Shown here in pieces: positions 10,460 to 39,054 of a DNA stretch of 39,054 bases. How positions within the stretch are numbered: position 1 is the first letter of the stretch; each line of letters begins with the position of its first letter. The notes beneath the pieces were generated by a model. The model had not been told where the DNA came from and did not search any database. It was given only the letters and a program-made list of their open reading frames with translations. The stretch lies in the IMG/VR virus record IMGVR_UViG_2874945390_000007; one strand, written 5' to 3'. This DNA is from a virus (lineage: Duplodnaviria > Heunggongvirae > Uroviricota > Caudoviricetes). The position numbers were made by a program, and so were the translations under genes.

Positions 10460-10463
10460 ACCA

Positions 10464-10775: not shown

Positions 10776-10835
10776 CGAATTTGACGGCTTTTAATTTTAT
10801 CGGGGTGCACTGTCGCCCCGCACGAGGAAAACACG

Positions 10836-11360
10836 ATGAAAAAATACGAATACATGCTAATGAAAGAAGCACTGCGGGCTGGTCTGGCTCCCTGTCCTGT
10901 ATCCGTAGAAGCTGTTGTTGGGAACACGATTTTCCGAACGCTGCGAAATCGCGTATCCGTGAAGATGGTTCACCAACCACCCAAATCTACCAGCATGATC
11001 TATCTGCCGCTGCCCGAGGCTATCAAACTTATGCGTTCGCTGAAATTTGCGATTTGGATGCAGACACAAATCAACAAAGCGGTGCAAAACACCTTCGTTA
11101 AGAGACTAATACCGGAGCTTGCTGCCAGATGTGCAAAATGTACCAGACCCGCACTTCAATTTGATCTGTCATTGATTCAACAAGCTACGGAGGCAGAACT
11201 GTACCGCCTGTCACCTATCCGTGATGCTCACACGGAAGCATCAGAAATGTTCCGGCTCATGTTTCAATTTAATTTTGCCGTTCGACGCACACGCGTTCAG
11301 GTCAATCGCATGATGCAGGAGCAGGAAGAGTTAACACAGTACAAAGGGGGCAGCCAGTGA
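10836..11360 (+). CDS. hypothetical protein (cargo in variable A-Q region)
   Basis: 174-aa ORF MKKYEYMLMKEALRAGLAPCP...; no recognisable family. Confidence 0.5.
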   Translation: MKKYEYMLMKEALRAGLAPCPVSVEAVVGNTIFRTLRNRVSVKMVHQPPKSTSMIYLPLPEAIKLMRSLKFAIWMQTQINKAVQNTFVKRLIPELAARCAKCTRPALQFDLSLIQQATEAELYRLSPIRDAHTEASEMFRLMFQFNFAVRRTRVQVNRMMQEQEELTQYKGGSQ

Positions 11361-20625: not shown

Positions 20626-21253
20626 GGCATTCACCCGCGTGGATGAAACCTTTGAGGCTATCCGCGACAGCCTGAATCAGCAGGCCATTAATAACATCGC
20701 CAGAAAGCTGGCACAGGATTTACGCCGCGCCCAGCAGGCGCGTATCCGGTCACAGAAAGCGCCGGACGGGACCGCATGGACACCACGCAGACGCCGCGTA
20801 ACCCGGATACAGGAGCGCATTCGCTTTATCTGGAATAACGAAGCACGCACGCTGAAAAACTGGCATCACGACACGGGGAAATACGGGCGAACCATCACCG
20901 GGTGGGATGAGGATAAAAACAATATCCGCACGTTTTACCGGGATGACATCGACCGTTTTCTGGAAATACGCACCCGGCGCATCAACCAGGACAGCACCAG
21001 GCGCGTCTCCATGTTCGTAAAACTGCGCACCGCCCGCTACCTGAAAGCCCGTGCAGATGCTTCCGGTGTGACGGTGGGTTACAGCGGCGTGGCCGCACGT
21101 ATTGCACGCGTTCATCAGTTCGGTGAGCGCGATCAGGTTGCGCCGGGCATTTTCACCGATTACCCGGTACGTGAGCTGCTGGGTATCAGCCAGGCAGATG
21201 AGCGCCTGATTTATAACACGGTGCTGGGCCGGATTGCGGAGGCTGTACGATGA
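20618..21253 (+). CDS. S: tail completion / virion morphogenesis protein, P2 gpS position
   Basis: 211-aa ORF between R and V; assignment mainly positional. Confidence 0.6.
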   Translation: MDKAFTRVDETFEAIRDSLNQQAINNIARKLAQDLRRAQQARIRSQKAPDGTAWTPRRRRVTRIQERIRFIWNNEARTLKNWHHDTGKYGRTITGWDEDKNNIRTFYRDDIDRFLEIRTRRINQDSTRRVSMFVKLRTARYLKARADASGVTVGYSGVAARIARVHQFGERDQVAPGIFTDYPVRELLGISQADERLIYNTVLGRIAEAVR

Positions 21254-21831
21254 GCGCAGAACTCATGCGACTGCTGAGCAATATCATCCGCACCGGGATC
21301 ATCTCTGAAGTTGATGAGGAATCCTGGTGCGTGCGCGTTCGCAGCGGCGAACTGGAAACAGGCTGGCTGCGCTGGAACACCACGCGCGCGGGAGACTTCA
21401 ACGTGTGGTTTCCGCCATCACCAGGCGAACAGGTGGCAATTGCCTGCATCGGCGGCAACCCGGAAACCGCCATGATAATCGGCAGCCTGTGGAGTGATGC
21501 CATTCCGGCACCCGGCAAAAGCCTGAAAGAAATCGTGGTCAGCGCGCCGGACGGCGCGGTGTTCCGCTACGACGCGGACGCAGGCGCACTGAGCGCAAGC
21601 GGCATGAAAACGGCCACTTTGCAGGCATCCATCAGCGTGACACTGAACACGCCTGTCGTGGAATGCACAGACCTTCTGAGAACAGCGACGCTTGACGTCA
21701 CAAAAGGGGGAACGATGAGCGGCAATATCACGCACAGCGGCGGCGATTTCACCTCAAACGGCATCACAGTGCATACGCATAAGCACGGTGGCGTTAAAGG
21801 TGGCAGCGATTCGACAGGAGGCCCGCAGTGA
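21250..21831 (+). CDS. V: baseplate spike/assembly protein, P2 gpV family
   Basis: 193-aa ORF; order V-W-J-I conserved. Confidence 0.8.
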   Translation: MSAELMRLLSNIIRTGIISEVDEESWCVRVRSGELETGWLRWNTTRAGDFNVWFPPSPGEQVAIACIGGNPETAMIIGSLWSDAIPAPGKSLKEIVVSAPDGAVFRYDADAGALSASGMKTATLQASISVTLNTPVVECTDLLRTATLDVTKGGTMSGNITHSGGDFTSNGITVHTHKHGGVKGGSDSTGGPQ

Positions 21832-26733: not shown

Positions 26734-27678
26734 TTAAATACTCCCCGCGTTATACCACGTCCCATTAATGCAATACTGAATTGGCCTTGCCTGAGTTGTA
26801 TCAATTAGTTCATCTCTGTTTGAGTTAACGGAACCGGTAACAACATAACCTGACCTGTCAGACCATCCGGGACCATTCCATGTCTGAACAGATAACAGAC
26901 CACCAAGGCGAATACCTGTAATAAACCTTGAGTTACATTCTGCCTGCGTATATGCACCAACATCTCCCGCAGAGGGTTTGCGGGTTGTGGTGTAAAACTC
27001 TGACCAGTCAGCTTCAAAGCCATAACCATCACGCGCTGAACGATAAAAAATACCGCCGTTCCTGTAATTCACGCGGAACTGTACAGCAGGGCAGCTCCCC
27101 GTATTCATATTGAAGTGGAGGATTAATGTCGATGCGCCACCAATGTTTGCGTTATAGACCCCGCTATTCCAGTTCCAGCCAACAGCTTTATCATTTCCGA
27201 CAGTGCTTCCTGTTTGCCCTAAAGCAAATGCAGGTTGTTGATTTTTCGTGTTGTAGTCTCGTCGCCAGCCAGGAGCGTAAGCATCACCATGATTAATATA
27301 AGTGAATTGAGCGTTAGTAATTCCGCCACCGCTGGACGTGCTCGGCGTGGTAACGCGTATGGTCATTGCGCCGCGAGTGCCAATAACTTCCACCACAGCA
27401 CCTGCAAGACAAATATTTCCGCAACCTGTATCTGTAATGACCTTATTATTTGCATAAGCCCATGAGCCTTTGCACATCCAGTAAGGATGGTTAAATGCTC
27501 CCTGACTCTCCAGCCACGAAATAAATTGCGCGGTTGTCCAGACCTGACTATCGCCACCAATATTCAGCCATGAGCTATATGCGCGGCAGGCACCAATATT
27601 TTTGGTGAAGGTATCTTTCCCCGGAATATCTGCGCCGTTCTGGTTTTTCTGTAATGCGCCAGAAGCCTGATTTACCGT
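26734..27678 (-). other. alternative tail-fibre C-terminal cassette (H variable part, silent orientation; no own start)
   Basis: Minus-strand frame ...LQETVNQASGALQKN...CINGTWYNAGSI is collinear with the H region after the crossover site but has a different receptor-binding C-terminus; ORF-track N-terminal extension to 27834 reads through the crossover site into the IS and is not a real start. Confidence 0.8.
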
Positions 27679-27704
27679 TTCCTGTAAACCGAGGTTTGAG
27701 GTGT
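27679..27704. repeat. right crossover site for DNA invertase (gix/pix-like)
   Basis: ttcctgtaaaccgaggtttgaggtgt; inner half-site identical to left site in inverted orientation, outer half-site more degenerate. Confidence 0.75.
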
Positions 27705-27739
27705 ACTGGCAATAGCGGACACTACCATTTGTTCTTTTT

Positions 27740-28558
27740 TTAAGCAGCCATCTGATGATATTTTTCCCTGAAGGCTGCCGGGGAGATATTCCCCAGACGA
27801 GAGTGACGACGCTGACGATTGTAGAAAATCTCAATGTATTCCCGTATTACTGAGATGGCTTCATCCCGGTTATTAAAACGATAGTGGCTCAGGCTCTCAT
27901 TTTTCAGCGTTCCCCAGAAGCTTTCCATCGGAGCGTTGTCGTAACAGTTACCTTTACGCGACATTGATGTTTTCAGACCAAACTGCTCCTGTATGACCCG
28001 GTAATCGTATGCGCAGTACTGTGAACCTCGATCAGAGTGGTGGATTAGCCCGGCAGGTGGGCGCTGGCTCCTGAGCGCCATAAACAGGGCTTTACCTGTC
28101 AGCTCTTTTGTCATGCGCTCTCCCATGGCGTAGCCGACAATTTCGCACGTATAAACATCTTTGATGCCAGCGAGGTACAACCATCCCTCCTGTGTGGCAA
28201 CATACGTCAGGTCCGCCACCCAGACCTGATTTGGTGCTGTAGGAGCGAACGTCTGGTTCAGCAGATTTGGCGCAACTGGCAGATTGTGGTTCGAGTTCGT
28301 AGTCGCTCTGAACTTGCGTTTCTGCTTACAGCGTAGCCTTAGCTCCTTACGAAGACGTGCCAGTCGGTCACGACCAACGATGATGCCATTCTCTGCCAGC
28401 TCCGTCTGGAGCCGCCGGGTTCCATATGTTTCGCGAGTGCGGATATGTGCCACCTTAATCTCCAGTTTTAGCCGCTCATCACTTTGTTTTCTGTCTGAGG
28501 GTTCATGCTGTACCCAGTTGTAATAACCGCTCCTGGATACACCAAATACCTGACACAT
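27740..28558 (-). CDS. IS3-family transposase OrfB (catalytic DDE domain; expressed as OrfAB fusion by -1 frameshift)
   Basis: 272-aa ORF with ...VWVADLTYV...GWLYLAGIKDVYT...HHSDRGSQY...CYDNAPMESFWGTLK... typical IS3 OrfB. Confidence 0.9.
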   Translation of the reverse strand: MCQVFGVSRSGYYNWVQHEPSDRKQSDERLKLEIKVAHIRTRETYGTRRLQTELAENGIIVGRDRLARLRKELRLRCKQKRKFRATTNSNHNLPVAPNLLNQTFAPTAPNQVWVADLTYVATQEGWLYLAGIKDVYTCEIVGYAMGERMTKELTGKALFMALRSQRPPAGLIHHSDRGSQYCAYDYRVIQEQFGLKTSMSRKGNCYDNAPMESFWGTLKNESLSHYRFNNRDEAISVIREYIEIFYNRQRRHSRLGNISPAAFREKYHQMAA

Positions 28559-28896: not shown

Positions 28897-29025
28897 TATT
28901 AGCTCCTTCTGATGCCATTCTATTTCAGGAAGGAGTGTCCGTTAAACTCAGGCTACCTCAGTTTTAGATAATGGCCGTTTCCGGCCTGCATGGCATGATT
29001 TGCGCTTTTGGACGGGAGATTCAGC

Positions 29026-29613
29026 GTGCTGATTGGCTATGTAAGGGTATCAACAAATGACCAGAATACAGACCTGCAACGAAACGCTCTTGTTTGTGCA
29101 GGATGTGAACAAATATTTGAAGATAAATTAAGCGGGACAAAGACAGACCGACCGGGATTAAAACGCGCTTTAAAGCGCCTTCAAAAAGGTGACACGCTGG
29201 TTGTCTGGAAACTGGATCGCCTCGGGCGAAGCATGAAACATCTGATTTCTCTCGTCGGGGAACTACGGGAGCGAGGAATTAATTTTCGCAGTCTGACCGA
29301 CAGCATAGATACATCTTCTCCAATGGGGCGTTTTTTCTTCCACGTGATGGGTGCCCTGGCTGAAATGGAACGTGAATTAATTGTTGAACGTACACTGGCC
29401 GGACTGGCGGCAGCACGCGCACGGGGGCGCACAGGCGGACGTCGACCGAAGCTGACAAAAGAACAGCATGAGCAAATAGCAAGGCTGATCAAAAACGGGC
29501 ACGACAGAAAACAACTGGCAATAATTTACGGCATTGGTATATCGACGATTTATCGTTACCACCCCGCAGGAGAATCAATCGGAACAATAGAGAAGAGTCA
29601 GGAAACAAAATAA
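29026..29613 (+). CDS. pin: serine DNA invertase, Pin/Gin/Hin/Cin family
   Basis: ORF 29008..29613 (TTG); preferred GTG start 29026 giving (M)LIGYVRVSTNDQNTDLQRNAL...LVVWKLDRLGRSMKHL...GINFRSLTDSIDTSSPMGRFFFHVMGALAEMERELIVERT... nearly collinear with e14 Pin; catalytic Ser in YVRVST. Confidence 0.92.
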   Translation: MLIGYVRVSTNDQNTDLQRNALVCAGCEQIFEDKLSGTKTDRPGLKRALKRLQKGDTLVVWKLDRLGRSMKHLISLVGELRERGINFRSLTDSIDTSSPMGRFFFHVMGALAEMERELIVERTLAGLAAARARGRTGGRRPKLTKEQHEQIARLIKNGHDRKQLAIIYGIGISTIYRYHPAGESIGTIEKSQETK

Positions 29614-29648: not shown

Positions 29649-30143
29649 TCAGAACAACCCTTTAACTGAACTGGCCGCGCTGTTAAGGGATGATGTTACC
29701 TTATCTTTGAAGCCGGACAGCATATCGCTGAACGATGAGGATTGCAGGCGCTCCCGCAAATCCTCATCACAGCGTTCAAGAGTCAGTGAAAATTCTATCT
29801 TTTTCGCCTTACCGTAGCGATCAAACTCGGAGCGGGTCGTATTCGTTTCGGTCAGGACATACATGCCGTAAATCTGCCCGACGCCATCAATCAGAGGCCA
29901 GGGTCGTCCTGTATACGCCTGCGTGGTCAGCAGCGACAGCGACACTTCGCCACCTGTAATTTCAGGATAAAGCACACCAGAAAGAACGATGCGCTCATCA
30001 CCTGCACCGATATACTGCCAGCTTGCCGAACGGTTAACGCGTTCATTTTTCACATGCCGCCAGCTTTTGTTTTGCTGTAACTGCTGATGCGGCAATGTAC
30101 GCAGCTCAAAAACAAACATGCCGTAGATCATCATCATGGCCAT
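29649..30143 (-). CDS. U: tail protein U
   Basis: 164-aa ORF ...FVFELRTLPHQQLQQNKSWRH...GRPWPLIDGVG... resembling P2 gpU. Confidence 0.8.
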   Translation of the reverse strand: MAMMMIYGMFVFELRTLPHQQLQQNKSWRHVKNERVNRSASWQYIGAGDERIVLSGVLYPEITGGEVSLSLLTTQAYTGRPWPLIDGVGQIYGMYVLTETNTTRSEFDRYGKAKKIEFSLTLERCDEDLRERLQSSSFSDMLSGFKDKVTSSLNSAASSVKGLF

Positions 30144-30149
30144 GACTCC

Positions 30150-32993
30150 TCAATCTTTATCGTAAAAACTGCCACGCCCGGCACGGGCGCGCCGTTCCAT
30201 TTCTGCCCTGACCATTTCACCGACCAGTTTCGCCAGTTCGCGGGGATTCTGCGTAACAACGTTATGCAGATGAACATGAATTTCACCACCAAATCCGGAG
30301 GCAACAGGCTCCCGGTTACGGGAAGTTACAGGAACTGATGCCACTGGAGAGCGTATGGCCTCCGCCACCGGGCGGGAGCTGGCCGCAACAACAGGGACCA
30401 GCGCCGGAGGCAGCGGAGCCGGGACCACGGGTGTGATATTAATTGCGGGGGCAGGCTTACTGACCTGCGCAATCTTCCGCTCCTGCCACTCCCCACGAAC
30501 AGCAAGTGCGCGGGGCAGGTTCTTAAAGACAATATCGCCGGGGCCAATGCGTTTTTTCGTCTCATCAACCAGCTTACCTGTGTTATCAGCAATTTTGCTG
30601 AGTCTGCGTAGCGTCCCGGTATTGCTGTCTGTGAGCGGTTTGTTGTCTTTGGGTTTATCACCTCCGGTGCCATTGCCATTTTCCACAGGCTTCGGCGGAT
30701 TGATTTTCGCCAGGTTCCCCTGAAGCAAGGCAACCTTGTCCTGAAGAATGGCCGCACGCTGTGCGTCTTCGATTTTCTTGCGCGCCCTTTCCGCTTCATC
30801 CGGAAGGACGCCAAGTTTTTCAAGTATCCACGCCAGCGTATCCAGTAGCATTTTTGCAGGTGTCAGAACAAGTTGTAACGCACCGCCAAGAACGTTACCG
30901 AATATCTCGCCAGCACTGGCACATTTATCCAGCGTTTCCTTGCTGGACTCCATCGGTGACAGCAGCGATTTAAACCAGTTAAAGACCTGAATAATCCCAT
31001 CGCGCACGACATCAAAAACAGGGCCAAACCGTTCAAAGGTTTCGCGCAACGGGGTCAGCCTTTCCATAATCCCGCTGAACACCCCGGCAAAAAATGCCCT
31101 GATGGGATCCCAGTATTTCCAGATAAGAACGGCAGCTCCGGCAAGCGCAGCCACGATAAGACTAACCGGACTGAACAGCGCCCCGATAGCGCCACCAAGT
31201 AAAGAAACGGAACCCGTCACCATTCCCCATAATGCAGGCAGAACCCTGACAACATTCATTGATTCGGTCAGGAGAGAAAAACCGAGACGCAACGTAGCCA
31301 GCTTCCCGTGAAGCACCCCAATAACCAGAGACAACGAACCAACCGTTGCTGTTGTCGCCAGCAGTGCGCCTCCCGCTATCAGTAACTGGCGCGTCAGTGC
31401 CGGGTGGGCCTGCGCCAGCGCCGTCACCTTTGAGACAACCCGCGTGAGCCACTGCGTGACAGAACGCAGCGGACCGTCAACCAGATCACTGATGCGAATA
31501 CGCAGACCTTCCCATGCACTGCCGAGTGATTTCAGGTTGCCATCAAGGTTATTGGCCATAACCTTTGCCGTGCGTTCTGCCTCACCGCGCGCGCCTTCAA
31601 GTTCTTTTCTCAGTTTGGCTAAGAAGCCGTCACCTGCCGCATCAACGAGGCCCATAAATGATGTGAAAGCCTCTTCTCCGGCAATGTCCTTAAAGAACGA
31701 TACCCGGTCAACCTCCCCGTATTTGCGGGTGGCTTTATAGAGATCGGCCAGCACATTCTCCATCGGGCGCATTTTGCCTTTGGCGTCAGCAACTGACACC
31801 CCCAGCTCTTTCAGTGCTTCTGCCGCTGCCTTTGGCGGTGATGACAGATTGGCCAGGCTTTTACGCAACGCTGTACCTGCATCACTCCCCCTGATACCCA
31901 TCTTCGCCAGCACGCCCGCCATCGCTGCGGCCTGCTCCAGCGATATTCCCAGCTTACCCGCCACCGGACCTGCATATTTCATGGTTTCGCCCAGTGCGCG
32001 AAGGTCAGTGTTGGTACGGGTAAACGCTGCGGTAAGTGTGTCACCGACCCGGTCCATCTGGTCAGCAGAGAGGCCGAACTGCGTCAGGATATTGGAACCA
32101 ATATCCGCCGTCTCGCCGAGGTCCATACCGCCAGCCGTTGCCATGCTCAGCACGCCGGGAAGCGCAGCCTGAATGGCCTGCGGTGTGAAACCAGCCATTG
32201 CAAGAAATGCCTGTCCACTGGCGGCATCGCCTGCGGTGAACTGCGTTTCAGAGCCAAGTTTTAACGCCTGCTCACGCAGCGCCTTAAACTGCGGGCTGTT
32301 TTTATCGATTCGCGTCAGTGCCTGAACACGGGACATCTCTTTCCCGAACCCGATAGCGGGCTGCAAAAAACGCCCGGCAGCATAGCCGCCCGCTGCCGCC
32401 GCACCTGTTGCCAGCGCACCACCTGTTTTCAGTTTTCCCGCTGTTTCCTGCGCGCGTGAATACCGCTCACGCGCCTGCGTTACACGCGCAAGCGCCCGCC
32501 GTTCGCGTTCAAGCTGGTTGTTGTATTGTCCGGTGCGTCTGATGGCCTGCTGGATGGTGTTATCGCTGCCTGTCAGGGAAATGCCGTGGCGTTTCAGCTC
32601 TCCGCCAAGTTCCCGCATTTTCTGAATTTCCCGTGTGCGCGATTCATTCAGGCGTTCAAGCCGGGTGCTTAACTGCTGCATCAGCTTTTGTTGTTTTTCG
32701 CTGAGCACTGTACCCGTGCGTTGTAACTGATTAAGGGCGTTAAGCTGGCGTCGTGCTTTCACGATGCCCGCATCCGCTTTACTGACAGCGTCACGGGCGC
32801 GCTCAAATGAACGCGCCTGACGCTCGAGATTTTTGATCGCCCCCTGCGTTCGCTGGATGGAGTCACCAAACTGCCCCATCAGGCGGCGGGCGTTTTCGGC
32901 AGGCCGGGTCAGCCTGTCAACGGCGCTGAAAGCGACCCGGATATCAAGAGTCTTCATTGTCTGCATTCCCGCTGCGAAGTGCCGCCCGCTCAC
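30150..32993 (-). CDS. T: tail tape measure protein T
   Basis: 947-aa ORF, helical/Ala-rich with central hydrophobic segment; position between E/E' and U. Confidence 0.88.
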   Translation of the reverse strand: MSGRHFAAGMQTMKTLDIRVAFSAVDRLTRPAENARRLMGQFGDSIQRTQGAIKNLERQARSFERARDAVSKADAGIVKARRQLNALNQLQRTGTVLSEKQQKLMQQLSTRLERLNESRTREIQKMRELGGELKRHGISLTGSDNTIQQAIRRTGQYNNQLERERRALARVTQARERYSRAQETAGKLKTGGALATGAAAAGGYAAGRFLQPAIGFGKEMSRVQALTRIDKNSPQFKALREQALKLGSETQFTAGDAASGQAFLAMAGFTPQAIQAALPGVLSMATAGGMDLGETADIGSNILTQFGLSADQMDRVGDTLTAAFTRTNTDLRALGETMKYAGPVAGKLGISLEQAAAMAGVLAKMGIRGSDAGTALRKSLANLSSPPKAAAEALKELGVSVADAKGKMRPMENVLADLYKATRKYGEVDRVSFFKDIAGEEAFTSFMGLVDAAGDGFLAKLRKELEGARGEAERTAKVMANNLDGNLKSLGSAWEGLRIRISDLVDGPLRSVTQWLTRVVSKVTALAQAHPALTRQLLIAGGALLATTATVGSLSLVIGVLHGKLATLRLGFSLLTESMNVVRVLPALWGMVTGSVSLLGGAIGALFSPVSLIVAALAGAAVLIWKYWDPIRAFFAGVFSGIMERLTPLRETFERFGPVFDVVRDGIIQVFNWFKSLLSPMESSKETLDKCASAGEIFGNVLGGALQLVLTPAKMLLDTLAWILEKLGVLPDEAERARKKIEDAQRAAILQDKVALLQGNLAKINPPKPVENGNGTGGDKPKDNKPLTDSNTGTLRRLSKIADNTGKLVDETKKRIGPGDIVFKNLPRALAVRGEWQERKIAQVSKPAPAINITPVVPAPLPPALVPVVAASSRPVAEAIRSPVASVPVTSRNREPVASGFGGEIHVHLHNVVTQNPRELAKLVGEMVRAEMERRARAGRGSFYDKD

Positions 32994-33473
32994 GCCAGCT
33001 AACCACTTCGCCGGGCGTCATCATGAAGATTTCGGCGGGCGACCAGTTAAAAATGGCGGCAATATCCGCCACAAAGTCTTCTATGTGCTCAAAGCACACA
33101 ACCGTGATCAGGCTTCCGTCGCCTGTTCGTTCTTCTCGCCAGAGTCCGCACCGCTCAAAAAATTTACGGCAACCACACATAACTGAATAAAGTCACGGGA
33201 TGCCATTTTTTTGATCGTCACTTCATCCAGTCGCGGTGATGTCACGCGTGACAGCAGCGTAAACATGGATTCCGCTTTCAAATTCAGCACATCAGACAGC
33301 GACAAATCTCGCAGAGATCCAGCCTGCTCAATAGCCCCGGTGATCTCCACATACGTGATTTTTTCGCCGCCTCGCTCAATTGGTTGGGTAAGTTTTACGC
33401 CACGCTCACTGGTTTCTTTCACAGTGTCAGCAACGACCGTGTTTTCGGTATCGATGTTTTTCGTCTCTTTCAT
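32944..33473 (-). CDS. E+E' programmed -1 frameshift product
   Basis: Minus-strand -1 frame ORF (32944..33180 in track) continues from the A7 slippery run inside E and overlaps the start of T, as for P2 E/E' and lambda G/GT. Confidence 0.6.
33108..33473 (-). CDS. E: tail assembly chaperone E
   Basis: 121-aa ORF upstream of T; contains slippery A7 run (complement of 33204..33212). Confidence 0.75.
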   Translation of the reverse strand: MKETKNIDTENTVVADTVKETSERGVKLTQPIERGGEKITYVEITGAIEQAGSLRDLSLSDVLNLKAESMFTLLSRVTSPRLDEVTIKKMASRDFIQLCVVAVNFLSGADSGEKNEQATEA

Positions 33474-33527
33474 CAGGAAACTCCTTTCAGTCAGAGGCGA
33501 CGCACTGCGCCGCCTGCATATTACTTA

Positions 33528-34040
33528 TCAGCCAAGCCCGAGCGCGGAACGGATGCGATCGGGCACAATGTCCCTGCCGTCCTTCCGGTAAATGAAGTTC
33601 AGCAGGTCAATCTCCCACAACGGGCGATCGTTAACACTCAGCTTGTAGTAGGTGTTTTTAATGGCGTAAGTGTGTGATGTGGCTTCGCCCTGTTTGGCTT
33701 CCCCCATATCAATTTCCGTCACACGTCCGCGCATTTCGACTTCATACAGGTCGCTTTCAGCGTCGGTGTAGTATTCACCCGCAAAACGCAGCAGCGTACC
33801 GTCAATCGTGCCGCCATACTTAAGGAACAGCTCACGAACTGCGCCCCCCATGACAAAGCTCGCATCAAGCGCGGAGTCATCCAGGCCGAGATCAATACTT
33901 ACCGCTCCCATCATGCCACCACCCCGGTAGCTGTCGGTTTTGCGCGTCAGCTTAGGCAGAGTGACGGACGTCACCTTACCCACTTCGTTTTCACCATCCA
34001 CAAACAGCGTAAAAAAGCGAAGATGTTTTGGTACAGCCAT
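33528..34040 (-). CDS. FII: tail tube protein FII
   Basis: 170-aa ORF; size and position as P2 FII. Confidence 0.85.
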   Translation of the reverse strand: MAVPKHLRFFTLFVDGENEVGKVTSVTLPKLTRKTDSYRGGGMMGAVSIDLGLDDSALDASFVMGGAVRELFLKYGGTIDGTLLRFAGEYYTDAESDLYEVEMRGRVTEIDMGEAKQGEATSHTYAIKNTYYKLSVNDRPLWEIDLLNFIYRKDGRDIVPDRIRSALGLG

Positions 34041-35224
34041 CAGGCACCTCCCAGCACCGCAAATGCGGGACCAAAGAATTCATCAGTAAACGACTGGTAA
34101 AGCTCCATGTCTTCCAGCGGGGGAACAGGCGTATATTTGTAGCGAATACGCACGCGCCCCTGACGTAAATTCGTGGTGCCGTTATCCACCACGTCATACC
34201 AGCACGACGCCCCAATCAGTTTCCCGGCAGTAACCAGTGAATCCAGTTTTGCCCTGATGGCACCGATAACATCCTTCACGTTCGCAGGCGTCAGTGGACT
34301 GTCGATGGTTTCAAACTGCGCTTCCGCAATTGAATCAGCCAGCACCTGTGCGGTTCGGGTATACACCTCAAAGATGTAGGCGTTCGTTTCCGGTGTGCGG
34401 TTGCCCCAGAAGCGGAACCCGTTGCGACGAATAATGGTCGTGATTTCTTTGTTGTTGAGGCTGTTGGCATCACTGTCTTCGGCCTGCAACGACCAGAACA
34501 CATGCCTGGACATCCCCAGCACATTTTTAACCGGAACGTTGGACAGCGATTTGTGCCAGCCCTGCTCATGGTCAATGTACGCACGAAGGCCGCACGCATA
34601 GGCAGGCGCGGGGAACGTTTCGTTTTTGCCACTTTTCGGGTTGTAGGCGATGAAGTCCGGCCATAAGAGCATCACCTCACGTTCGTTGAATTTCTGGCGG
34701 TAGGTAATTGCCTCAGCCATCGTGTTACAGTCATGACATGAGGCATACACAAACGCGCGCAGTTTACCCGCAATCACGCACAGGGATTTTGTCACCGCCT
34801 CCGTGTCCAGCTCCGGCGCGGCCAGAATACGCGGACGGTATCCGATGCTTTCATCCTGCTCTGCAACAAGCAGCGCATACATCCCCGTATAGCTGCCGTC
34901 AGATTCAGAACCACCGATAACCAGTTGATCCTGCGTTTTTCCGTCTTCTTCTTTGTGTTCAGCCACGCGAACGACGATCACCTTTGTGCTCACCTGGTCT
35001 GCGATGGCCTTAAGCGCACGATAAAGCGTCCCCGTTGTTCCGCATTTTCCCAGCACGTCATTGACGCGGGGCAGCAGTGTGGGCTTGTTCAGCGGGAACA
35101 GCTCCGCGTCCGCATCATCCGCCGTTGCCACGATACCGATAACGCTGGAATCAACATCGTTAATCGCTGTTACCAGGTCGGTATTTTCCGTAACACGGGC
35201 ACCATGAAAACGAGTTTCACTCAT
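34040..35224 (-). CDS. FI: contractile tail sheath protein FI
   Basis: 394-aa ORF with ...FPLNKP..., ...KLRAF..., ...LLWPDF..., ...DHEQGWHKSLSNV..., ...IRRNGFRFWGNRT..., ...YTRTAQV..., ...YKYTPVPPLE... matching P2 gpFI. Confidence 0.92.
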   Translation of the reverse strand: MSETRFHGARVTENTDLVTAINDVDSSVIGIVATADDADAELFPLNKPTLLPRVNDVLGKCGTTGTLYRALKAIADQVSTKVIVVRVAEHKEEDGKTQDQLVIGGSESDGSYTGMYALLVAEQDESIGYRPRILAAPELDTEAVTKSLCVIAGKLRAFVYASCHDCNTMAEAITYRQKFNEREVMLLWPDFIAYNPKSGKNETFPAPAYACGLRAYIDHEQGWHKSLSNVPVKNVLGMSRHVFWSLQAEDSDANSLNNKEITTIIRRNGFRFWGNRTPETNAYIFEVYTRTAQVLADSIAEAQFETIDSPLTPANVKDVIGAIRAKLDSLVTAGKLIGASCWYDVVDNGTTNLRQGRVRIRYKYTPVPPLEDMELYQSFTDEFFGPAFAVLGGA

Positions 35225-35381
35225 AGCTTCAACCCCTTGTATCCGTTAAATGATTCGGCAACAATCATCACCCACCACGCGCGTAATCTCACCCCTGCGC
35301 CATTCTCCCGCCACGGCGACAACAAAAAGCAGTAACCCCCTCCGCACGCACATGCGACCATGCCACACAGGGAGGGAGCAG

Positions 35382-36491
35382 ATGACCGACACCACCATGC
35401 AATTGCTCAGTCAGGGCACAGACCCCGTGAAAATGCCGGATTTTGATATTCTCGCGGAGGGTAAAACGCTGTCAGGCGTGGCAGAGCGCCTGATGAGCCT
35501 GTCACTGACCGACAACCGGGGATTTGAGGCGGACCAGCTCACCATCACGCTGGATGATGCGGATGGTCAGTTGCAGCTACCGCCACGGGGCGCGCGCCTG
35601 ACGGTTCTCATTGGCTGGAAGGGAGAACCGCTGACAGAAAAAGGCACTTACATTGTTGATGAAATCGCTCACGAAGGACCGCCGGACAGGCTGACTGTTT
35701 CAGCCAGAAGCGCAGATTTTCGGGCTGAATTTAACGTTAAACGTGAGGTGTCCTGGCATGATGTGACCGTTGAGCGTGTGGTATCCGCCATCGCTCATCG
35801 GTATGGTCTGAAACCGCAAATCAGCGAAATGCTGATGGATATCGAAATCGACCACGCCGACCAGACCGAAGAAAGCGACATGTCCTTCCTTACGCGCATG
35901 GCGGAAATGCTGGGCGCAATCACCACGGTAAAAAGCGGTAATCTGTTATTCATCATGCCCGGTGGTGGCGTGAACGCACAGGGCCAGCCGTTGCCCTCGT
36001 TCGCCATCACACGCAGCAGCGGCGATCGCCATCAGTTCCGCATTGCTGACCGCGAAGCGTATACGGGGGTACGCGCTTACTGGCTTGATCTTAATTACGG
36101 GAAAAAGAAAAAAGTCAGCGTGAAACGCCGCAAACCGTCAAAACCAAAAAAGGAGAAAAGCAGCAGCCGGGAAGGCGACTATATGGAAGGTGCGGAAGGC
36201 AACGTGTTTGTGTTACGCAAAACTTATCAGAACGAGCAGGCAGCAAGACGTGCAGCGGCGGCAAAGTGGCAGCAGCTACAACGCGGAGCCGCATCATTCT
36301 CCATCACACTGGCGCATGGACGTGCAGAACTCTACCCCGAAATGCATGGCACGGTAACAGGATTTAAAAGCGAGATTGATAATCAGGACTGGATTATTGC
36401 AAAAGCCGAGCACACCATTGATAACAGCGGCTTTACCACGCAGCTTGAGCTTGAGGCAAAAATCCCGGAATGGATAGCAGAAACAGAGTGA
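35382..36491 (+). CDS. D: tail protein D
   Basis: ORF 35250..36491; ATG 35382 (MTDTTMQLLSQGTDPVKMPDFDILAEGKTLSG...) preceded by GGGAGGGAG; about 369 aa. Confidence 0.85.
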   Translation: MTDTTMQLLSQGTDPVKMPDFDILAEGKTLSGVAERLMSLSLTDNRGFEADQLTITLDDADGQLQLPPRGARLTVLIGWKGEPLTEKGTYIVDEIAHEGPPDRLTVSARSADFRAEFNVKREVSWHDVTVERVVSAIAHRYGLKPQISEMLMDIEIDHADQTEESDMSFLTRMAEMLGAITTVKSGNLLFIMPGGGVNAQGQPLPSFAITRSSGDRHQFRIADREAYTGVRAYWLDLNYGKKKKVSVKRRKPSKPKKEKSSSREGDYMEGAEGNVFVLRKTYQNEQAARRAAAAKWQQLQRGAASFSITLAHGRAELYPEMHGTVTGFKSEIDNQDWIIAKAEHTIDNSGFTTQLELEAKIPEWIAETE

Positions 36492-36716
36492 GCAACTTAA
36501 ATGTATTAACTCAGAACGGATCAACACACTCACAACATAGAGTCAATATAGCTGCTCGCTTTGTTCCAGCAAGGATGCCTATTTCTAAGGAAAAACAGAG
36601 CAGAAACATATGGTGTTTTCCTACCTGACATCAGGGGTGGTAAGAATCATGCTTTGATAACCAATTGATAACTATTATTATATTAATCTAACACCATTGA
36701 CATAGTTGAGGTTTGA

Positions 36717-38219
36717 ATGAACAAAAAGCTGTATTTATTCCCAGACTCAAACATTTTTCTACAATGCAAGGACTTGACGCAGGTAAATTTTTCCGAGATT
36801 ACTGCTTGTGATGAAGTATGTATCATTATTACAAGGCCCATTCAGCAAGAGATTGACCGCCAGAAAGGGCAAGGTAATTCCCGCCTATCCAAAAAAGCAA
36901 GGAAGGCTGCTAGCCTATTTAATCAAGTAGTTGATTCAACTGACATGACTCTTGTTATTCGTGAACGCTCGCCGCGAGTTTTTCTTACCATGGATCTAAG
37001 CCTGAAACCATGTGAACAGTTATCTGAACAATTGGATTATCAGGAGGCCGACGATCGTTTTGTTGGTATTGCGGCAGGGTATTGCGCTGACGATCCAGAT
37101 TCGGAGGTGGCAATCATTACCAATGATAGCGGTCCACGTTTTTCAGCAATAAAACATAATATAATCTGCTATAAAGTGCCTTCTTCATGGTTGCTTCCTG
37201 CTGAGCCAGATGAAAAGGATAAACAAATTAAATTGCTGGAAGCTAAGCTGAAGCAATTCACTCAGTCTATGCCCGATTTCAGCATTAAAGTAGCCGATGA
37301 CGAGCAATTAAATATTGTACTTCCTTATTATACAGCTTTATCTGAATATGAAGTTGATAATTTGCTTTGTCAACTAACGGATGCATTCCCATTGGTTACA
37401 AACTTTGACAATGAACAAACTACCCCACAATCACTAGAAAAAATCATCAAGTCATTTAGTCAACAGGAGTATTTCCCTGTATCAGCAGATGATATTTCTC
37501 TTTATAAAGAAAAACATTATCCACTTTGGAAAAAGCAGTGTGAAGAAATACTGAAAAACTGTCATACTCATATTAATCCGAAGGCAATAAATTACCCGCT
37601 GTCGTTTTTATTACAAAACACAGGTTATACTATCGCTGAACGTGCTGTGGTAACATTTACAGCAAAAGGAGATTTTCGTCTGTGTGGATTTAATTGGGAG
37701 ATAATGGAAGAGCTGACTGAAAGCAAAAGGATTGACCTACCTTCAGCCCCTACCGCCCCCAAAGGAAAATGGCGTAGTGTATGTGGCGTAACAGAAAGAA
37801 TGCCTTACGCTGGGGGAGCTTTGGAAACACCGCTATCCAGTATAATTTCAAAAGAAATTGGTCCTTTGTTATCTCTTACTCCAACAGAAAGGGATAAAAA
37901 CGATTTTTATTATAAAGAAAAGAGAAATGAGCCAGTTCAAGTTGTATCGCTGGAATGCGAAGAGTGGCGTCATCAAGTCAAAGAAGAAATATTCCCGTTG
38001 TTCGTATATACAGCCAACAAACCAAAGAAAGTGAATGGTGCAATTGAGGTGAGAGTTGATGCAAATAACCTTACCAATCCGGTCATTAAAACATTTAAAT
38101 TAAAAATAACTATAGAAGAACATAGTGCATTTTCAACCATAACAGAAATGGTGCAGACATACATTCAAGAGCAGAAGAAAAGACAGAAAAGTTCTATTAG
38201 CGCACAAATCAAAACATGA
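36717..38219 (+). CDS. PIN-like nuclease domain protein (N-terminal PIN fold, about 350-aa C-terminal region of unknown function); candidate defence gene
   Basis: 500-aa ORF; N-terminus MNKKLYLFPDSNIFLQ... (first acidic residue), ...QQEIDRQ..., ...DDRFVGIAAGY..., ...VAIITNDSGP... fit the four-acidic-residue PIN pattern; visibly AT-rich relative to flanking D and ogr; AT-rich promoter-like upstream region with TTGATA hexamers. Confidence 0.6.
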   Translation: MNKKLYLFPDSNIFLQCKDLTQVNFSEITACDEVCIIITRPIQQEIDRQKGQGNSRLSKKARKAASLFNQVVDSTDMTLVIRERSPRVFLTMDLSLKPCEQLSEQLDYQEADDRFVGIAAGYCADDPDSEVAIITNDSGPRFSAIKHNIICYKVPSSWLLPAEPDEKDKQIKLLEAKLKQFTQSMPDFSIKVADDEQLNIVLPYYTALSEYEVDNLLCQLTDAFPLVTNFDNEQTTPQSLEKIIKSFSQQEYFPVSADDISLYKEKHYPLWKKQCEEILKNCHTHINPKAINYPLSFLLQNTGYTIAERAVVTFTAKGDFRLCGFNWEIMEELTESKRIDLPSAPTAPKGKWRSVCGVTERMPYAGGALETPLSSIISKEIGPLLSLTPTERDKNDFYYKEKRNEPVQVVSLECEEWRHQVKEEIFPLFVYTANKPKKVNGAIEVRVDANNLTNPVIKTFKLKITIEEHSAFSTITEMVQTYIQEQKKRQKSSISAQIKT

Positions 38220-38462
38220 GGGTGTACTCAAATAATACAATGCTATAGTAAATCTATAAGTGCATAACTATTTCCTGATCTTTTCCCAAAATAGATGACA
38301 GGATAAAAAACATTCCAATCTTTTACAGGCTTTGGATAAATCGTATCAAAGCCTATTTCTTCAAGAGTTAAATCACCGCTTTTCGCTCGAAACGGACTGG
38401 CTGTTGGAGTATGAGCCAGAACAACTTAGAATAGCCCCTGCACTACGTTAAGGGAGGTCGCT

Positions 38463-38723
38463 ATGTTCCGTTGTCCGCTTTGTGGCGCATCTGCCCGTAT
38501 CCGCACCAGTCGTCCGGAAAATGATTCAAACACCGTGCGGCAAAAGTATTACCAGTGTAACAATCTGGAATGCGGCGTATGCTTCTCAACACTGGAAGCT
38601 TTCCATAAATTCACATCAAAACACGCCTCCGGCGTTCACTCTTCAGAAGATATCCCGTGGCATGATCTGCCAGCTTCACACAGGGGAAACAATCAGATGA
38701 GCTTGCCTTTACCTCAGAATTAA
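38463..38723 (+). CDS. ogr: late gene transcriptional activator, Ogr/Delta zinc-finger family
   Basis: 86-aa ORF MFRCPLCGASARIRTSRPENDSNTVRQKYYQCNNLECGVCFSTLEAFHKF... with CxxC...CxxxxC as in P2 Ogr. Confidence 0.9.
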   Translation: MFRCPLCGASARIRTSRPENDSNTVRQKYYQCNNLECGVCFSTLEAFHKFTSKHASGVHSSEDIPWHDLPASHRGNNQMSLPLPQN

Positions 38724-38783
38724 CAGGCAGAATTGCCGGAGTAACAAAAAAGCGATAGATTACGCGCGGGTGCCTTTCGGCTG

Positions 38784-38996
38784 ATGGTCGGAGGGAATAC
38801 CCGAAGGCCAGATGTGGAAAGGCCCCGGAAAACATCTCTGTTTAACCGAGGCCCTAACCGCATTACCTTGACAAGTGAAAGGTTAGCGCCTCTCCGGAAA
38901 AGGAGCAAGTGCTATGTCGCAAAAATCGCTTACGACCATCACGTTCTGCGTGACGGCAATCCTCATCATCTGGATGTTGCACGGTTCGCTGTGTGA
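38784..38996 (+). CDS. possible Mok-like overlapping reading frame
   Basis: 70-aa ORF overlapping the hok-like start in another frame, same size class as R1 mok; support is positional only. Confidence 0.3.
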   Translation: MVGGNTRRPDVERPRKTSLFNRGPNRITLTSERLAPLRKRSKCYVAKIAYDHHVLRDGNPHHLDVARFAV

Positions 38997-39054
38997 AATA
39001 CGGATGAGCTTCTGGGGAGCGGAGTTTGCGGCGTTCTTACAGTGTAAGCAGTAA
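38914..39054 (+). CDS. Hok/Gef-family type I toxin (46 aa), not in ORF track
   Basis: ATG 38914 with AGGAG upstream; translation MSQKSLTTITFCVTAILIIWMLHGSLCEIRMSFWGAEFAAFLQCKQ has TM helix plus SLCEIR and AAFL motifs shared with Hok/HokA; stop codon is the last 3 nt of the window. Confidence 0.7.
   Translation: MSQKSLTTITFCVTAILIIWMLHGSLCEIRMSFWGAEFAAFLQCKQ

What the first reader, a model, noticed from the sequence alone, without database searches (positions are those of the whole stretch)
36492..38462. AT-rich island between D and ogr encoding a 500-aa PIN-like nuclease protein: candidate single-gene anti-phage system
Canonical P2 has D followed directly by ogr. Here a roughly 2-kb insert with visibly lower GC than the flanking genes carries one long ORF (36717..38219) with its own promoter-like AT-rich leader. 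Its first ~150 aa show the PIN-domain acidic pattern (LYLFPDSNIF / QQEID / DDRFVG / AIITNDSG); the remaining ~350 aa have no family I recognise. A lone nuclease-domain protein with an unknown sensor-like extension, inserted as a moron in a prophage, fits the architecture of abortive-infection or defence proteins. I cannot match it to a named system.
Basis: partly seen in the sequence, partly recalled or inferred. Interest (0 to 1): 0.75.

Follow-up and report, generated by a model that had tools for sequence, protein, structure and literature searches.

The report
Mobile PIN nuclease, candidate phage defence
A P2-like prophage of E. coli carries, between tail gene D and the regulator ogr, a self-contained 1.9-kb foreign cassette encoding a 500-aa protein that joins an intact RNase-type PIN domain to an unassigned immunoglobulin-like module; the family is widespread, uncharacterised and keeps turning up in phage cargo hotspots, defence islands and inside restriction-enzyme operons, so it is a strong but untested candidate for a new single-gene anti-phage system.

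Summary
ORF 36717..38219 (+, 500 aa) lies in a 1,916-bp island (about 36503-38418) with 37.9% GC against 53.3% for the prophage. The island sits between D and ogr, which are adjacent in most related prophages.

The family is large (1,259 50%-identity clusters at E<=1e-30) and almost uniformly about 490-510 aa. It spans many phyla, and I found no name or test for it.

No partner gene is conserved across 46 loci. Members occupy five cargo sites of P2-like phages and an ICE. They sit beside Gabija, and within about 7 kb of Eleos-like dynamins or PARIS. In four distant lineages they sit 32-54 bp after hsdS inside type I R-M operons, which is PrrC's position.

Most likely this is an autoinhibited, infection-triggered RNase acting as a prophage-borne defence. 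That function is inferred, not shown. I rate it a new variant of a known kind, interest about 0.6.

The parts
35250..36491 (+). Left flank: tail/late-control gene D. The longest ORF is given; the true start is probably internal, near 35380.
   Evidence: ORF. RefSeq names it 'phage late control D / VgrG-Pvc8 family'.
36486..36502 (.). Left copy of an imperfect direct repeat (GAGTGAGCAACTTAAAT). It covers D's last codon, the stop codon and the 11 bp that follow.
   Evidence: 14 bp of the empty site (TGAGCAACTTAGAA) align to both edges of the island.
36503..38418 (+). The inserted cassette: 1,916 bp, 37.9% GC.
   Evidence: Boundaries come from blastn against the empty site in UTI89. Composition. 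The cassette is 100% identical in 59 of 5,426 complete E. coli genomes.
36654..36681 (+). Sigma-70 promoter-like site (TTGATA-16-TATTAT, 10 of 12), 36 nt upstream of the ATG. It is putative.
   Evidence: The scan shows no enrichment over shuffled sequence, so this is only a consensus match.
36708..36711 (+). Shine-Dalgarno-like GAGG, 5 nt before the ATG.
   Evidence: Read directly from the sequence.
36717..38219 (+). The gene: a 500-aa PIN plus Ig-like-module protein (RefSeq WP_001035742.1, 'PIN domain-containing protein').
36717..37196 (+). PIN nuclease domain (aa 1-160) with conserved D10, E45 (and D47), D112 (and D113) and D137.
37212..37577 (+). Linker helix (aa 166-183), a small alpha/beta unit (aa 188-223), a disordered loop (aa 236-247) and a helical pair (aa 257-286) carrying invariant Y263, Y268 and W271.
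   Evidence: AlphaFold models and alignment A1.
37584..38126 (+). Ig-like/macroglobulin-type beta-sandwich (aa 290-470) with a disordered proline-rich insert (aa 357-388). It carries the invariant motifs NxG, RDPNxFYY, LECExWRH (C414, W417, R418, H419) and HAxN.
38130..38213 (+). Long, poorly conserved C-terminal helix (aa 472-499).
38327..38362 (+). Terminator-like hairpin (AGGCTTTgGATA/TATCAAAGCCT) followed by ATTTCTTC, inside the conserved 3' trailer.
   Evidence: It is conserved in three cassettes at three different phage sites, with one compensatory pair. The consensus scan did not flag it.
38376..38395 (+). Small hairpin motif CCGCTTTTCGCTCGAAACGG at the end of the trailer. Its function is unknown.
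   Evidence: Looser copies end unrelated cargoes at D-ogr.
38404..38432 (+). Right copy of the direct repeat. It also reads as a putative ogr promoter (TTGGAG-17-TAGAAT).
   Evidence: This right end is conserved in nearly all the cargo-bearing D-ogr loci examined (weak in L008) and is a diverged duplicate of D's 3' end. The promoter reading is inference from the sequence.
38463..38723 (+). Right flank: ogr (late-gene activator, Ogr/Delta zinc finger).

Best explanation
The island is a horizontally acquired, self-contained accessory cassette (a 'moron') made of leader, gene and terminator. It sits in a third cargo hotspot of P2-like phages, between D and ogr.

Its single product is a metal-dependent PIN endonuclease, most likely an RNase of the SMG6/Nmd4/VapC type, fused to a non-catalytic recognition module built around an Ig-like beta-sandwich.

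The most likely function is prophage-encoded anti-phage defence of the one-protein sensor-plus-effector kind. In the lysogen the nuclease would be held inactive by its own C-terminal module, since there is no antitoxin gene. An infection cue bound or sensed by that module would release the PIN site. RNA cleavage (phage transcripts, or host tRNA, rRNA or mRNA) would then stop the infecting phage, probably at the cost of the cell.

Shown here: the insert and its boundaries; the PIN fold and intact catalytic residues; the fixed two-part architecture; the absence of any conserved partner; the mobility of the unit; its association with cargo hotspots, defence genes and type I R-M operons.

Inferred: RNA as substrate; autoinhibition; the trigger; the defence phenotype.
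For: PIN domain:
- PIN_4 scores above Pfam's cut-off.
- E45, D112 and D137 are invariant and D10 is kept in at least 90% of 37 members that are only 28-73% identical. This is the D-E-D-D pattern of SMG6 (D1251/E1282/D1353/D1392; PMC5499597).

C-terminal module:
- It is conserved along its whole length, with invariant residues of its own.
- It folds confidently (pLDDT 84.6).
- It resembles only binding-type beta-sandwiches.

Family:
- There are 4,131 relatives, of which 1,259 clusters have E<=1e-30. The top 150 are nearly all full length at about 490-510 aa.
- Members occur in Enterobacterales, Bradyrhizobium, Burkholderiales, Geobacter, Nitrospira, Planctomycetota, Chloroflexi, Gemmatimonadota, Acidobacteriota and a CPR genome.

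Single gene:
- Clustering all ORFs within 3 kb in 46 loci finds no family in more than 6 loci.
- No conserved small ORF or Rfam RNA was found.

Mobility:
- The gene travels with about 190-285 bp of conserved non-coding flanks into unrelated sites.
- In L029 and L031 the gene is 99% identical while D and T are 90-95% identical.

Context:
- Five different cargo sites of P2-like phages are used: D-ogr (the window), S-V, portal-gpA twice, G-U/Z-fun and int-att.
- One member is in an ICE.
- One lies directly beside GajA/GajB (E 2.8e-208 and 6.4e-169) and near LeoA-like dynamins; another lies near AriA/AriB; another is followed by PDC-M24A/B; another is beside a HEC-04-like ATPase.
- The gene starts 32-54 bp after hsdS, on the same strand and upstream of hsdR or an hsdR-like segment, in L016, L057 and L059. 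L022 shares the hsdS spacing, but its contig ends before any hsdR could appear. Type I R-M genes lie within about 7.5 kb in 9 of 45 loci.

The D-ogr site itself:
- It carries at least 9 alternative single-gene cargoes, including a HEPN-like protein.

Precedent: one-protein PIN defence without an antitoxin has been validated (DS-3; PMC13092281).
Against: - No experiment exists. Neither nuclease activity, substrate, toxicity nor phage resistance has been tested for any member that I could find.
- PADLOC (2023) has no model for it, so the defence label rests on association alone.
- The near-versus-far neighbour control was not decisive. Defence genes occur in both sets, and the tool reports family counts only.
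- Some members sit among ordinary chromosomal genes.
- The Ig-like fold is generic and says nothing specific about a ligand.
- The promoter is only a consensus match, so expression in the lysogen is unproven.
- All 59 E. coli copies are identical and the listed ones are largely O111-lineage strains, so there is no within-species evidence of selection.
- Some PIN-like nucleases cut DNA, so RNA as substrate is an inference from the closest folds.
Confidence: 0.55

Rival explanations
1. A PrrC-like guardian of type I restriction-modification. The protein would be a latent RNase that monitors a type I R-M complex, or senses phage anti-restriction proteins such as Ocr, ArdA or Stp-like factors, through its Ig-like module. 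It would fire when restriction is disabled. The P2 copy would then be a standalone version that guards the host's chromosomal hsd system.
For: - In four distant lineages the gene starts 32-54 bp after hsdS on the same strand. In L016, L057 and L059, hsdR or an hsdR-like segment lies downstream. L022's contig ends first.
- HsdM and HsdS are the only recurrent neighbour families (6 and 5 of 46 loci).
- This is the position prrC occupies in the prr locus (established knowledge; PrrC is cited as an ABC-ATPase defence in 10.1101/2024.01.29.577857).
- A general link between PIN toxins and type I R-M was noted in PMC5499597.
Against: - Most loci (about 80%) have no type I R-M gene within about 7.5 kb, including the window.
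- The standalone cassettes carry their own regulatory flanks.
- Embedding in R-M operons is common for many unrelated defence genes and need not mean functional coupling.
- The protein has no similarity to PrrC's domains.
Confidence: 0.15
2. A selfish addiction or stabilisation toxin. The PIN nuclease would be the toxin of a cryptic toxin-antitoxin-like module, with the antitoxin encoded in the conserved non-coding flanks or supplied in cis by the C-terminal module. It would stabilise the mobile element rather than defend against phages.
For: - PIN domains are the commonest TA toxins (PMC5499597).
- The gene moves with conserved non-coding flanks.
- The same prophage end carries hok/sok.
- VapBC-like pairs lie nearby in 3 loci.
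Against: - No conserved upstream or downstream small ORF exists, and no Rfam RNA was found.
- The R-M-embedded copies lack the flanks altogether.
- The 3' trailer reads as a terminator.
- At 500 aa with a conserved 340-aa extra module, the protein is unlike VapC toxins.
- TA and defence roles are not mutually exclusive.
Confidence: 0.12
3. A phage-benefit RNase. The protein would serve the P2-like phage itself, through host shut-off, RNA processing, counter-defence or exclusion of P4-type satellites, rather than protecting the host.
For: - The gene lies on the same strand between D and ogr and could be read through from the late D transcript.
- Phage hotspots also carry anti-defence and virulence cargo (10.1101/2024.10.15.618418).
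Against: - Most related prophages lack any gene here, so it is dispensable for the phage.
- The family is found in non-phage settings: R-M operons, an ICE and chromosomal islands beside Gabija or within about 7 kb of PARIS.
- None of the 50,697 phage records in the GenBank collection carries it.
Confidence: 0.08
4. A DNA-targeting nuclease. The PIN domain would act on DNA, as FEN/Mkt1/T4 RNase H-like PIN relatives do, restricting incoming DNA directly instead of cleaving RNA.
For: - The PIN-like superfamily includes DNA nucleases (PMC5499597).
- Older database names call the protein 'DNA-binding protein'.
Against: - The closest folds and the Pfam family (PIN_4: SMG6, Nmd4, PhoH2-type, VapC, Utp24) are all RNases.
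- There are no helical-arch or H3TH features of FEN-type enzymes in the model.
Confidence: 0.08

Closest known systems
DS-3 (DefensePredictor; WP_022645725.1), a validated one-protein PIN defence system of E. coli
   Same: A single polypeptide with no cognate antitoxin. The PIN catalytic residues are required for defence. The authors propose auto-inhibition until infection (PMC13092281).
   Different: DS-3 is 340 aa, with its PIN domain split between the N- and C-termini around a helical insert. Ours is 500 aa with a contiguous N-terminal PIN and a beta-sandwich module. Profile comparison finds no relationship (hhalign probability 0.2%).
DS-5 and HEC-03, two-gene defence systems with a PIN effector
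   Same: A PIN nuclease acts as the effector of an anti-phage system found in mobile or embedded contexts.
   Different: Both need a second protein: DUF5830/AcrIF4-like for DS-5 and an ABC ATPase for HEC-03. Our family has no conserved partner. It has no profile similarity to DS-5B and no hit to any PADLOC model. The library holds other HEC models, though a HEC-03B model was not seen directly.
PrrC / RloC anticodon nucleases
   Same: Latent single-polypeptide RNases. PrrC is encoded between hsdS and hsdR of a type I R-M locus, the same position our family takes in L016, L057 and L059 (L022 shares the 32-54 bp hsdS spacing). They provide a working model of a nuclease unleashed when phage disables restriction.
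   Different: The folds are unrelated: PrrC has an ABC-type NTPase domain plus a distinct C-terminal anticodon-nuclease domain, against PIN plus an Ig-like sandwich here. No R-M genes adjoin the window copy.
SMG6 / Nmd4 / PhoH2-type PIN_4 endoribonucleases and VapC toxins
   Same: The same fold and the same D-E-D-D metal-binding tetrad.
   Different: Those proteins work in eukaryotic mRNA decay, as helicase fusions, or as toxins of about 135 aa with adjacent antitoxins. None carries this C-terminal module. Sequence identity is 12-25% over the PIN core only.
P2 cargo defence genes old, tin and Z/fun, and the hotspot systems of Rousset et al. 2022 and Vassallo et al. 2022
   Same: Low-GC accessory genes at fixed cargo sites of P2-like prophages that protect the lysogen against other phages. 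Relatives of our gene occupy those very hotspots (PMC9122126, PMC9519451).
   Different: The site in this window is different: D-ogr rather than gpA-portal or the tail-fibre region. The protein is unrelated, and no phenotype is known.

Membership tests
PIN domain-like superfamily, Pfam PIN_4 (PF13638) | Profile match above the curated threshold | tested here: met
   33.9 bits against a gathering score of 21.9, covering aa 10-151 and profile positions 4-128 of 132. Most homologues also carry PF13638.
PIN domain-like superfamily, Pfam PIN_4 (PF13638) | Rossmann-like alpha/beta/alpha PIN fold | tested here: met
PIN domain-like superfamily, Pfam PIN_4 (PF13638) | Three to four conserved acidic residues forming the metal site (D-E-D-D in SMG6) | tested here: met
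   E45, D112 and D137 are invariant and D10 is kept in at least 90% of 37 sequences. The SMG6 tetrad is taken from PMC5499597.
PIN domain-like superfamily, Pfam PIN_4 (PF13638) | Metal-dependent nuclease activity | not testable with these tools
   This needs purified protein and RNA or DNA substrates.
VapBC-type toxin-antitoxin module | Adjacent, usually upstream and overlapping, antitoxin gene | tested here: not met
   No conserved small ORF lies upstream or downstream in 13 loci, and there is no recurrent neighbour in 46 loci. In the R-M-embedded loci (L016, L022, L057, L059) the gene starts 32-54 bp after hsdS.
VapBC-type toxin-antitoxin module | Small single-domain toxin of about 130-150 aa | tested here: not met
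   The protein is 500 aa, and the conserved 340-aa extra module is present in nearly all full-length relatives.
HEC-03 (ABC ATPase plus PIN) | Match to a PADLOC model and a partner ABC ATPase gene in the same operon | tested here: not met
   PADLOC gives 0 hits at E<=10. The library holds HEC-01A and HEC-04 models; a HEC-03B model was not seen directly. An ATPase is adjacent only in L014 (divergent, HEC-04-like) and L021 (GajA).
DS-3 (one-protein split-PIN defence) | Sequence or profile similarity, and a PIN domain split by an insert | tested here: not met
   hhalign probability is 0.2%. Our PIN is contiguous at aa 1-160.
PrrC-like R-M-embedded latent nuclease | Encoded between hsdS and hsdR of a type I R-M operon | tested here: inconclusive
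   Met for family members L016, L057 and L059, with hsdR or an hsdR-like segment downstream. L022 shares the hsdS spacing, but its contig ends before hsdR. Partly met for L041 and L043. Not met for the window copy or for most loci.
PrrC-like R-M-embedded latent nuclease | N-terminal NTPase domain plus C-terminal anticodon-nuclease domain; activation by an anti-restriction factor | tested here: not met
   No NTPase domain is present. The activation part cannot be tested here.
Phage moron / cargo-hotspot gene | Variable content between conserved core genes in related phages, deviant composition, own expression signals | tested here: met
   The D-ogr site is either empty or holds one of at least 9 alternative cargoes. 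GC is 37.9% against 53.3%. A conserved trailer with a terminator-like hairpin is present. The promoter is only a consensus match.
Anti-phage defence system (generic) | Enrichment next to known defence genes or in mobile-element hotspots | tested here: met
   Of the 13 loci examined with gene annotation, 11 lie in phage cargo sites, an ICE, an R-M operon, beside or near known defence systems, or at the edge of a phage remnant. Type I R-M genes recur in the unbiased set. The distance control was not decisive.
Anti-phage defence system (generic) | Reduces phage plaquing or propagation when expressed | not testable with these tools
   No experiment on any family member was found. Brenes & Laub 2025 could not be read.

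The most novel reading that the evidence does not exclude
The family is a widespread, previously unrecognised 'guardian' RNase. It would do with a PIN plus Ig-like architecture what PrrC does with an ABC-ATPase plus anticodon nuclease. The Ig-like module would watch the type I restriction complex, or bind phage anti-restriction proteins, and unleash RNA cleavage when restriction is disarmed. P2-like phages, ICEs and defence islands would have repeatedly captured it as a portable cassette with its own promoter and terminator. The D-ogr junction would be a cassette-exchange site with conserved ends.
Probability: 0.15. Interest if true: 0.8.

Novelty: new variant of a known kind. Interest (0 to 1): 0.6.

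Why it matters
If the protein defends against phages, it would add a large cross-phylum family (over a thousand 50%-identity clusters) to the list of single-protein immune nucleases. It pairs a PIN effector with an Ig-like recognition module, an architecture I found in none of the defence systems I could check.

It would give a function to a gene carried by prophages in E. coli genomes, the identical copies listed being largely O111-lineage strains.

It would also establish the D-ogr junction as a third, cassette-like cargo site of P2-type phages, which could then be mined for more systems.

The recurrent placement just after hsdS gives a concrete, testable link between restriction systems and a back-up RNase. 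That question has so far rested mainly on PrrC and RloC.

The catalytic and C-terminal invariant residues identified here make the decisive mutants obvious.

Tried and rejected
- **Sequence searches of the PDB**, with the single protein and with the family profile, gave nothing usable.
- **PHROGs** gave only a weak hit to an unknown-function family over aa 442-488 (E 0.0027), which I did not pursue.
- **BFVD fold search** of the C-terminal module found no meaningful match (TM <= 0.26). The AFDB50 library was unavailable, so I could not ask whether the C-terminal module occurs with other effectors.
- **DS-3 as a D-ogr cargo.** I suspected that DS-3 (340 aa) might be the 340-aa 'hypothetical' cargo at D-ogr in strain 503025. 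The sequences are unrelated, and that cargo is a HEPN-like protein with an RHGIVH motif.
- **A hidden partner.** Six-frame ORF and nucleotide comparison of the flanks in 13 loci showed clade-specific non-coding conservation in all frames, not a gene. Rfam found nothing in the island. Consensus folding of the trailer gave a terminator-like hairpin rather than a structured RNA, though with only three sequences.
- **Near-versus-far PADLOC scan** of neighbours. Both sets contain defence genes and the tool reports family counts only, so no enrichment figure can be given.
- **The 'cassette-end' hairpin as a general signal.** The strict pattern occurs only in PIN cassettes, so this remains unexplained.
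- **Literature.** Nothing holds the accession WP_001035742 or the family's signature peptides. Rousset 2022, Vassallo 2022, the two modularity papers and the 2026 P2/P4 preprint do not mention a PIN system. Brenes & Laub 2025 is not held, and some DefensePredictor tables were truncated, so prior validation cannot be fully excluded.
- **The ORF between two tail genes** (21250-21831) that looked like extra cargo is simply gpV.
Full report
**1.

The window contains the ORF 36717..38219 (+) of 500 aa. Its N-terminus (MNKKLYLFPDSN) aligns with the N-termini of all its homologues, so the start is correct. GC drops from 0.50-0.60 in the flanks to 0.33-0.44 across the region. The island is 37.9% GC against 53.3% for the prophage backbone, and third-position GC is 31.9% against 59.2% for gene D.

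The flanks are the tail/late-control gene D (ending at 36491) and ogr (38463..38723). RefSeq annotates identical DNA in E. coli O111:H- 11128 as D, 'PIN domain-containing protein' (WP_001035742.1), ogr and hok. The host genes ihfA and pheT follow, so this is the right end of a P2-like prophage.

The full island is 100% identical in 59 of 5,426 complete E. coli genomes, and the copies listed are largely O111-lineage strains. About 1,140-1,200 genomes have the flanks. No record in the phage collection has the island.

**2. It is an insert at a cargo site with a cassette-like structure.**

In an even sample down the ranking of matches, 33 of 53 two-flank matches span about 1,094 bp, meaning D is directly followed by ogr. 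The others carry one of at least nine alternative cargoes, each a single gene on either strand:
- SEC-C/YecA-like, 379 aa
- DUF3800, 389 aa
- ParA-like ATPase, 352 aa
- alpha/beta hydrolase, 252 aa
- a HEPN-like 340-aa protein with an RHGIVH motif
- three hypothetical proteins

Against the empty site of UTI89, homology ends at 36502 and resumes at 38419. Fourteen bases of the empty site match both edges. The island is therefore 36503-38418 (1,916 bp), bracketed by an imperfect direct repeat: GAGTGAGCAACTTAAAT on the left and GAGTATGAGCCAGAACAACTTAGAAT on the right.

Nearly all the cargo types examined share the right end '...CTGTTGGAGTcTGAGC...ACAACTTAGAATAGC' (it is weak in L008). This is a diverged duplicate of D's 3' end, and it reads as TTGGAG-17-TAGAAT in front of ogr. 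Several also share the first roughly 25 bp after D's stop. My inference is that cargo is exchanged by recombination in these shared ends, while a promoter for ogr is preserved.

[quoted passage not shown] The classical hotspots are gpA-portal and the tail-fibre (Z/fun) region (PMC9122126, PMC9519451).

**3. The protein.**

Residues 10-151 match Pfam PIN_4 at 33.9 bits against a cut-off of 21.9. NCBIfam and PADLOC give nothing.

A family alignment of 37 members (28-73% identity) shows conservation along the whole length. E45, D47, D112 and D137 are invariant, and D10 and D113 are nearly so. This is the D-E-D-D tetrad that forms the metal site of SMG6 (D1251/E1282/D1353/D1392; PMC5499597).

This module carries invariant motifs of unknown meaning: YxxxxYPxW, NxG, LPxPPxAPxGxW, RDPNxFYY, LECExWRH and HAxN. 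I could not read the model coordinates, so I could not test whether these face the PIN site.

**4. The family.**

An exhaustive profile search finds 4,131 relatives. Of these, 1,259 clusters at 50% identity have E<=1e-30, and the best 150 are nearly all full length at about 490-510 aa. The two-part architecture is fixed.

In species-representative genomes the family occurs in the following groups, at 28-42% identity:
- Pantoea, Budvicia and Bradyrhizobium
- Burkholderiales, Nitrosospira and Geobacter
- Nitrospira, Nitrospinales and Planctomycetota
- Chloroflexi/Dehalococcoidia, Gemmatimonadota and Acidobacteriota
- Latescibacterota, Binatia, Poribacteria and a Peregrinibacteria (CPR) genome

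That is a patchy, broad distribution typical of horizontally moving accessory genes.

**5. It is a single-gene, mobile unit.**

Clustering all ORFs of at least 70 aa within 3 kb of the gene in 46 loci finds no neighbour family in more than six loci. Six-frame comparison of the flanks finds no conserved small ORF, and Rfam finds no RNA in the island.

Instead the gene carries its own non-coding flanks. In the Pectobacterium/Enterobacter clade, about 285 bp upstream and about 260 bp downstream are 72-90% identical, even though the surroundings are an ICE, two different P2 hotspots and a chromosomal island. The window, Rahnella and L033 share a roughly 190-bp 3' trailer at about 75% identity, although they sit at three different phage sites.

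The trailer holds a conserved hairpin followed by a U-rich run (38327-38362), which is probably the terminator. It ends in a small hairpin (38376-38395) of unknown role.

In two other E. coli viral contigs the gene is 99% identical while D and T are only 90-95% identical. This is consistent with cassette spread across diverged backbones.

**6. Where relatives live.**

| Context | Locus or protein |
|---|---|
| P2-like phage, D-ogr | the window |
| P2-like phage, S-V | Rahnella, 73% identical |
| P2-like phage, portal-gpA (the old/tin hotspot) | Enterobacter and L033 |
| P2-like phage, int-att | L017 |
| ICE | Pectobacterium |
| Directly beside GajA/GajB (E 2.8e-208 and 6.4e-169), near LeoA-like dynamins and a zeta toxin | L021 |
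| 7 kb from AriA/AriB | L019 |
| Followed by PDC-M24A/B | L022 |
| Beside a HEC-04-like ATPase | L014 |
| Edge of a phage-like remnant | L015 (Raoultella) |
| Integrase directly adjacent | four loci |
| Ordinary chromosomal neighbours | two loci |

The most striking pattern concerns type I restriction-modification. In four lineages (two metagenome contigs, a Chloroflexi MAG and a Gemmatimonadota MAG) the gene starts 32-54 bp after hsdS on the same strand. In three of them hsdR or an hsdR-like segment lies downstream, and the fourth contig ends before that point. Type I R-M genes lie within about 7.5 kb in 9 of 45 loci.

That is the position of prrC in the prr locus. Genes embedded in immune operons have a high validation rate as defences (10.1101/2024.01.29.577857).

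A near-versus-far PADLOC control was not decisive, because defence genes occur in both sets.

**7. What it most likely does.**

I commit to a prophage-borne, one-protein anti-phage system. The PIN domain is a metal-dependent endoribonuclease (inferred from the closest folds, all of which are RNases). The C-terminal module is the regulatory and recognition part. With no antitoxin gene, the enzyme must be held inactive in cis and released by an infection cue. RNA cleavage then aborts the infection. I put this at about 0.55.

Sub-variants and rivals:
- a PrrC-like guardian of type I restriction (0.15)
- a selfish stabilisation toxin (0.12)
- a phage-benefit RNase (0.08)
- a DNA-targeting nuclease (0.08)

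The evidence for and against each is given in the rival-explanations section of this report.

**8. Comparison with what is known.**

PIN nucleases are now validated defence effectors: DS-3 (one protein, split PIN, 340 aa), DS-5 (two proteins) and HEC-03 (ABC ATPase plus PIN) (PMC13092281). Our family is unrelated to DS-3 and DS-5B at profile level (probability 0.2%). It hits no PADLOC model and has no ATPase partner.

It is a member of the PIN_4 family by every feature testable here. It is not a VapBC module, nor DS-3, nor PrrC, and no HEC-03 feature was met. It works like the one-protein 'sensor plus nuclease' defences, and in some genomes it sits like PrrC.

I found no paper naming or testing it. 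One relevant paper (Brenes & Laub 2025) is not held and some supplementary tables were truncated, so prior validation cannot be fully excluded.

**9. Verdict.**

It is a new variant of a known kind: an uncharacterised, widespread PIN plus Ig-like family that is a well-supported candidate for defence, at a cargo site whose cassette structure is itself worth noting.

It is not very surprising to a specialist, because P2 hotspots are known reservoirs of unknown defences. It is, however, directly testable, and the link to type I R-M gives it a mechanistic hook. Interest 0.6.

Noticed in passing
window 36486-36502 and 38404-38432; loci L002, L004-L010, L018: The D-ogr junction behaves as a cassette-exchange site. 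At least nine unrelated single-gene cargoes occur there: SEC-C/YecA, DUF3800, ParA-like, alpha/beta hydrolase, a HEPN-like protein with an RHGIVH motif, and three hypotheticals. Nearly all share a conserved right end that duplicates D's 3' end and reads as a TTGGAG-17-TAGAAT promoter for ogr. None is a named system in PADLOC.
   Followed up: partly
window 38376-38395: The small hairpin CCGCTTTTCGCTCGAAACGG closes the conserved 3' trailer of the PIN cassette at three different phage sites. Looser copies end unrelated cargoes at D-ogr. No U-tract follows it, and its function is unknown.
   Followed up: partly
window 38768-39054: A hok/sok-type type I toxin-antitoxin sits at the prophage's right end. 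The Rfam sok match at 38768-38927 (+) scores 48.4 bits, below the gathering score of 59 (E 3.9e-9). A Hok-like ORF starts at 38914 and runs off the window.
   Followed up: partly
window 27740-28558 (-), with 26734-27834 (-) and 29008-29613 (+): An IS3-family transposase (rve and HTH_21 domains) is inserted next to a tail-fibre-like ORF and a DNA invertase. It possibly disrupts the invertible tail-fibre segment.
   Followed up: no
window 9500-11360: The classical gpA-portal hotspot of this prophage holds a ParM-like actin (StbA_N plus ParM_N, E 2.7e-82) and an unknown 174-aa ORF rather than a recognisable defence system. The same ParM/StbA cargo lies beside the PIN homologue in an Enterobacter P2-like prophage (L014).
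   Followed up: partly
window 29649-36491: The tail genes U, T, FII and FI are on the minus strand while D, the cargo and ogr are on the plus strand, so D heads its own divergent unit. RefSeq/PGAP calls D as a truncated 267-aa 'VgrG/Pvc8' protein plus a pseudo-ORF in many genomes, although the ORF in the window is intact (413 codons).
   Followed up: no
window 6601-9423: The gpA replication ORF is 940 aa, but the Phage_GPA domain covers only aa 179-503. The long N- and C-terminal extensions are unassigned.
   Followed up: no
L019 12014-15556: A 1,180-aa ORF immediately downstream of a PIN-family member has no Pfam or PADLOC match. It lies in an island that also carries PARIS-like AriA/AriB and could be another uncharacterised defence gene.
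   Followed up: no
L029 and L031 (E. coli viral contigs): The PIN gene is 99% identical to the window copy, while the adjacent D and T genes are only 90-95% identical. The cassette is more conserved than the phage backbones that carry it.
   Followed up: partly
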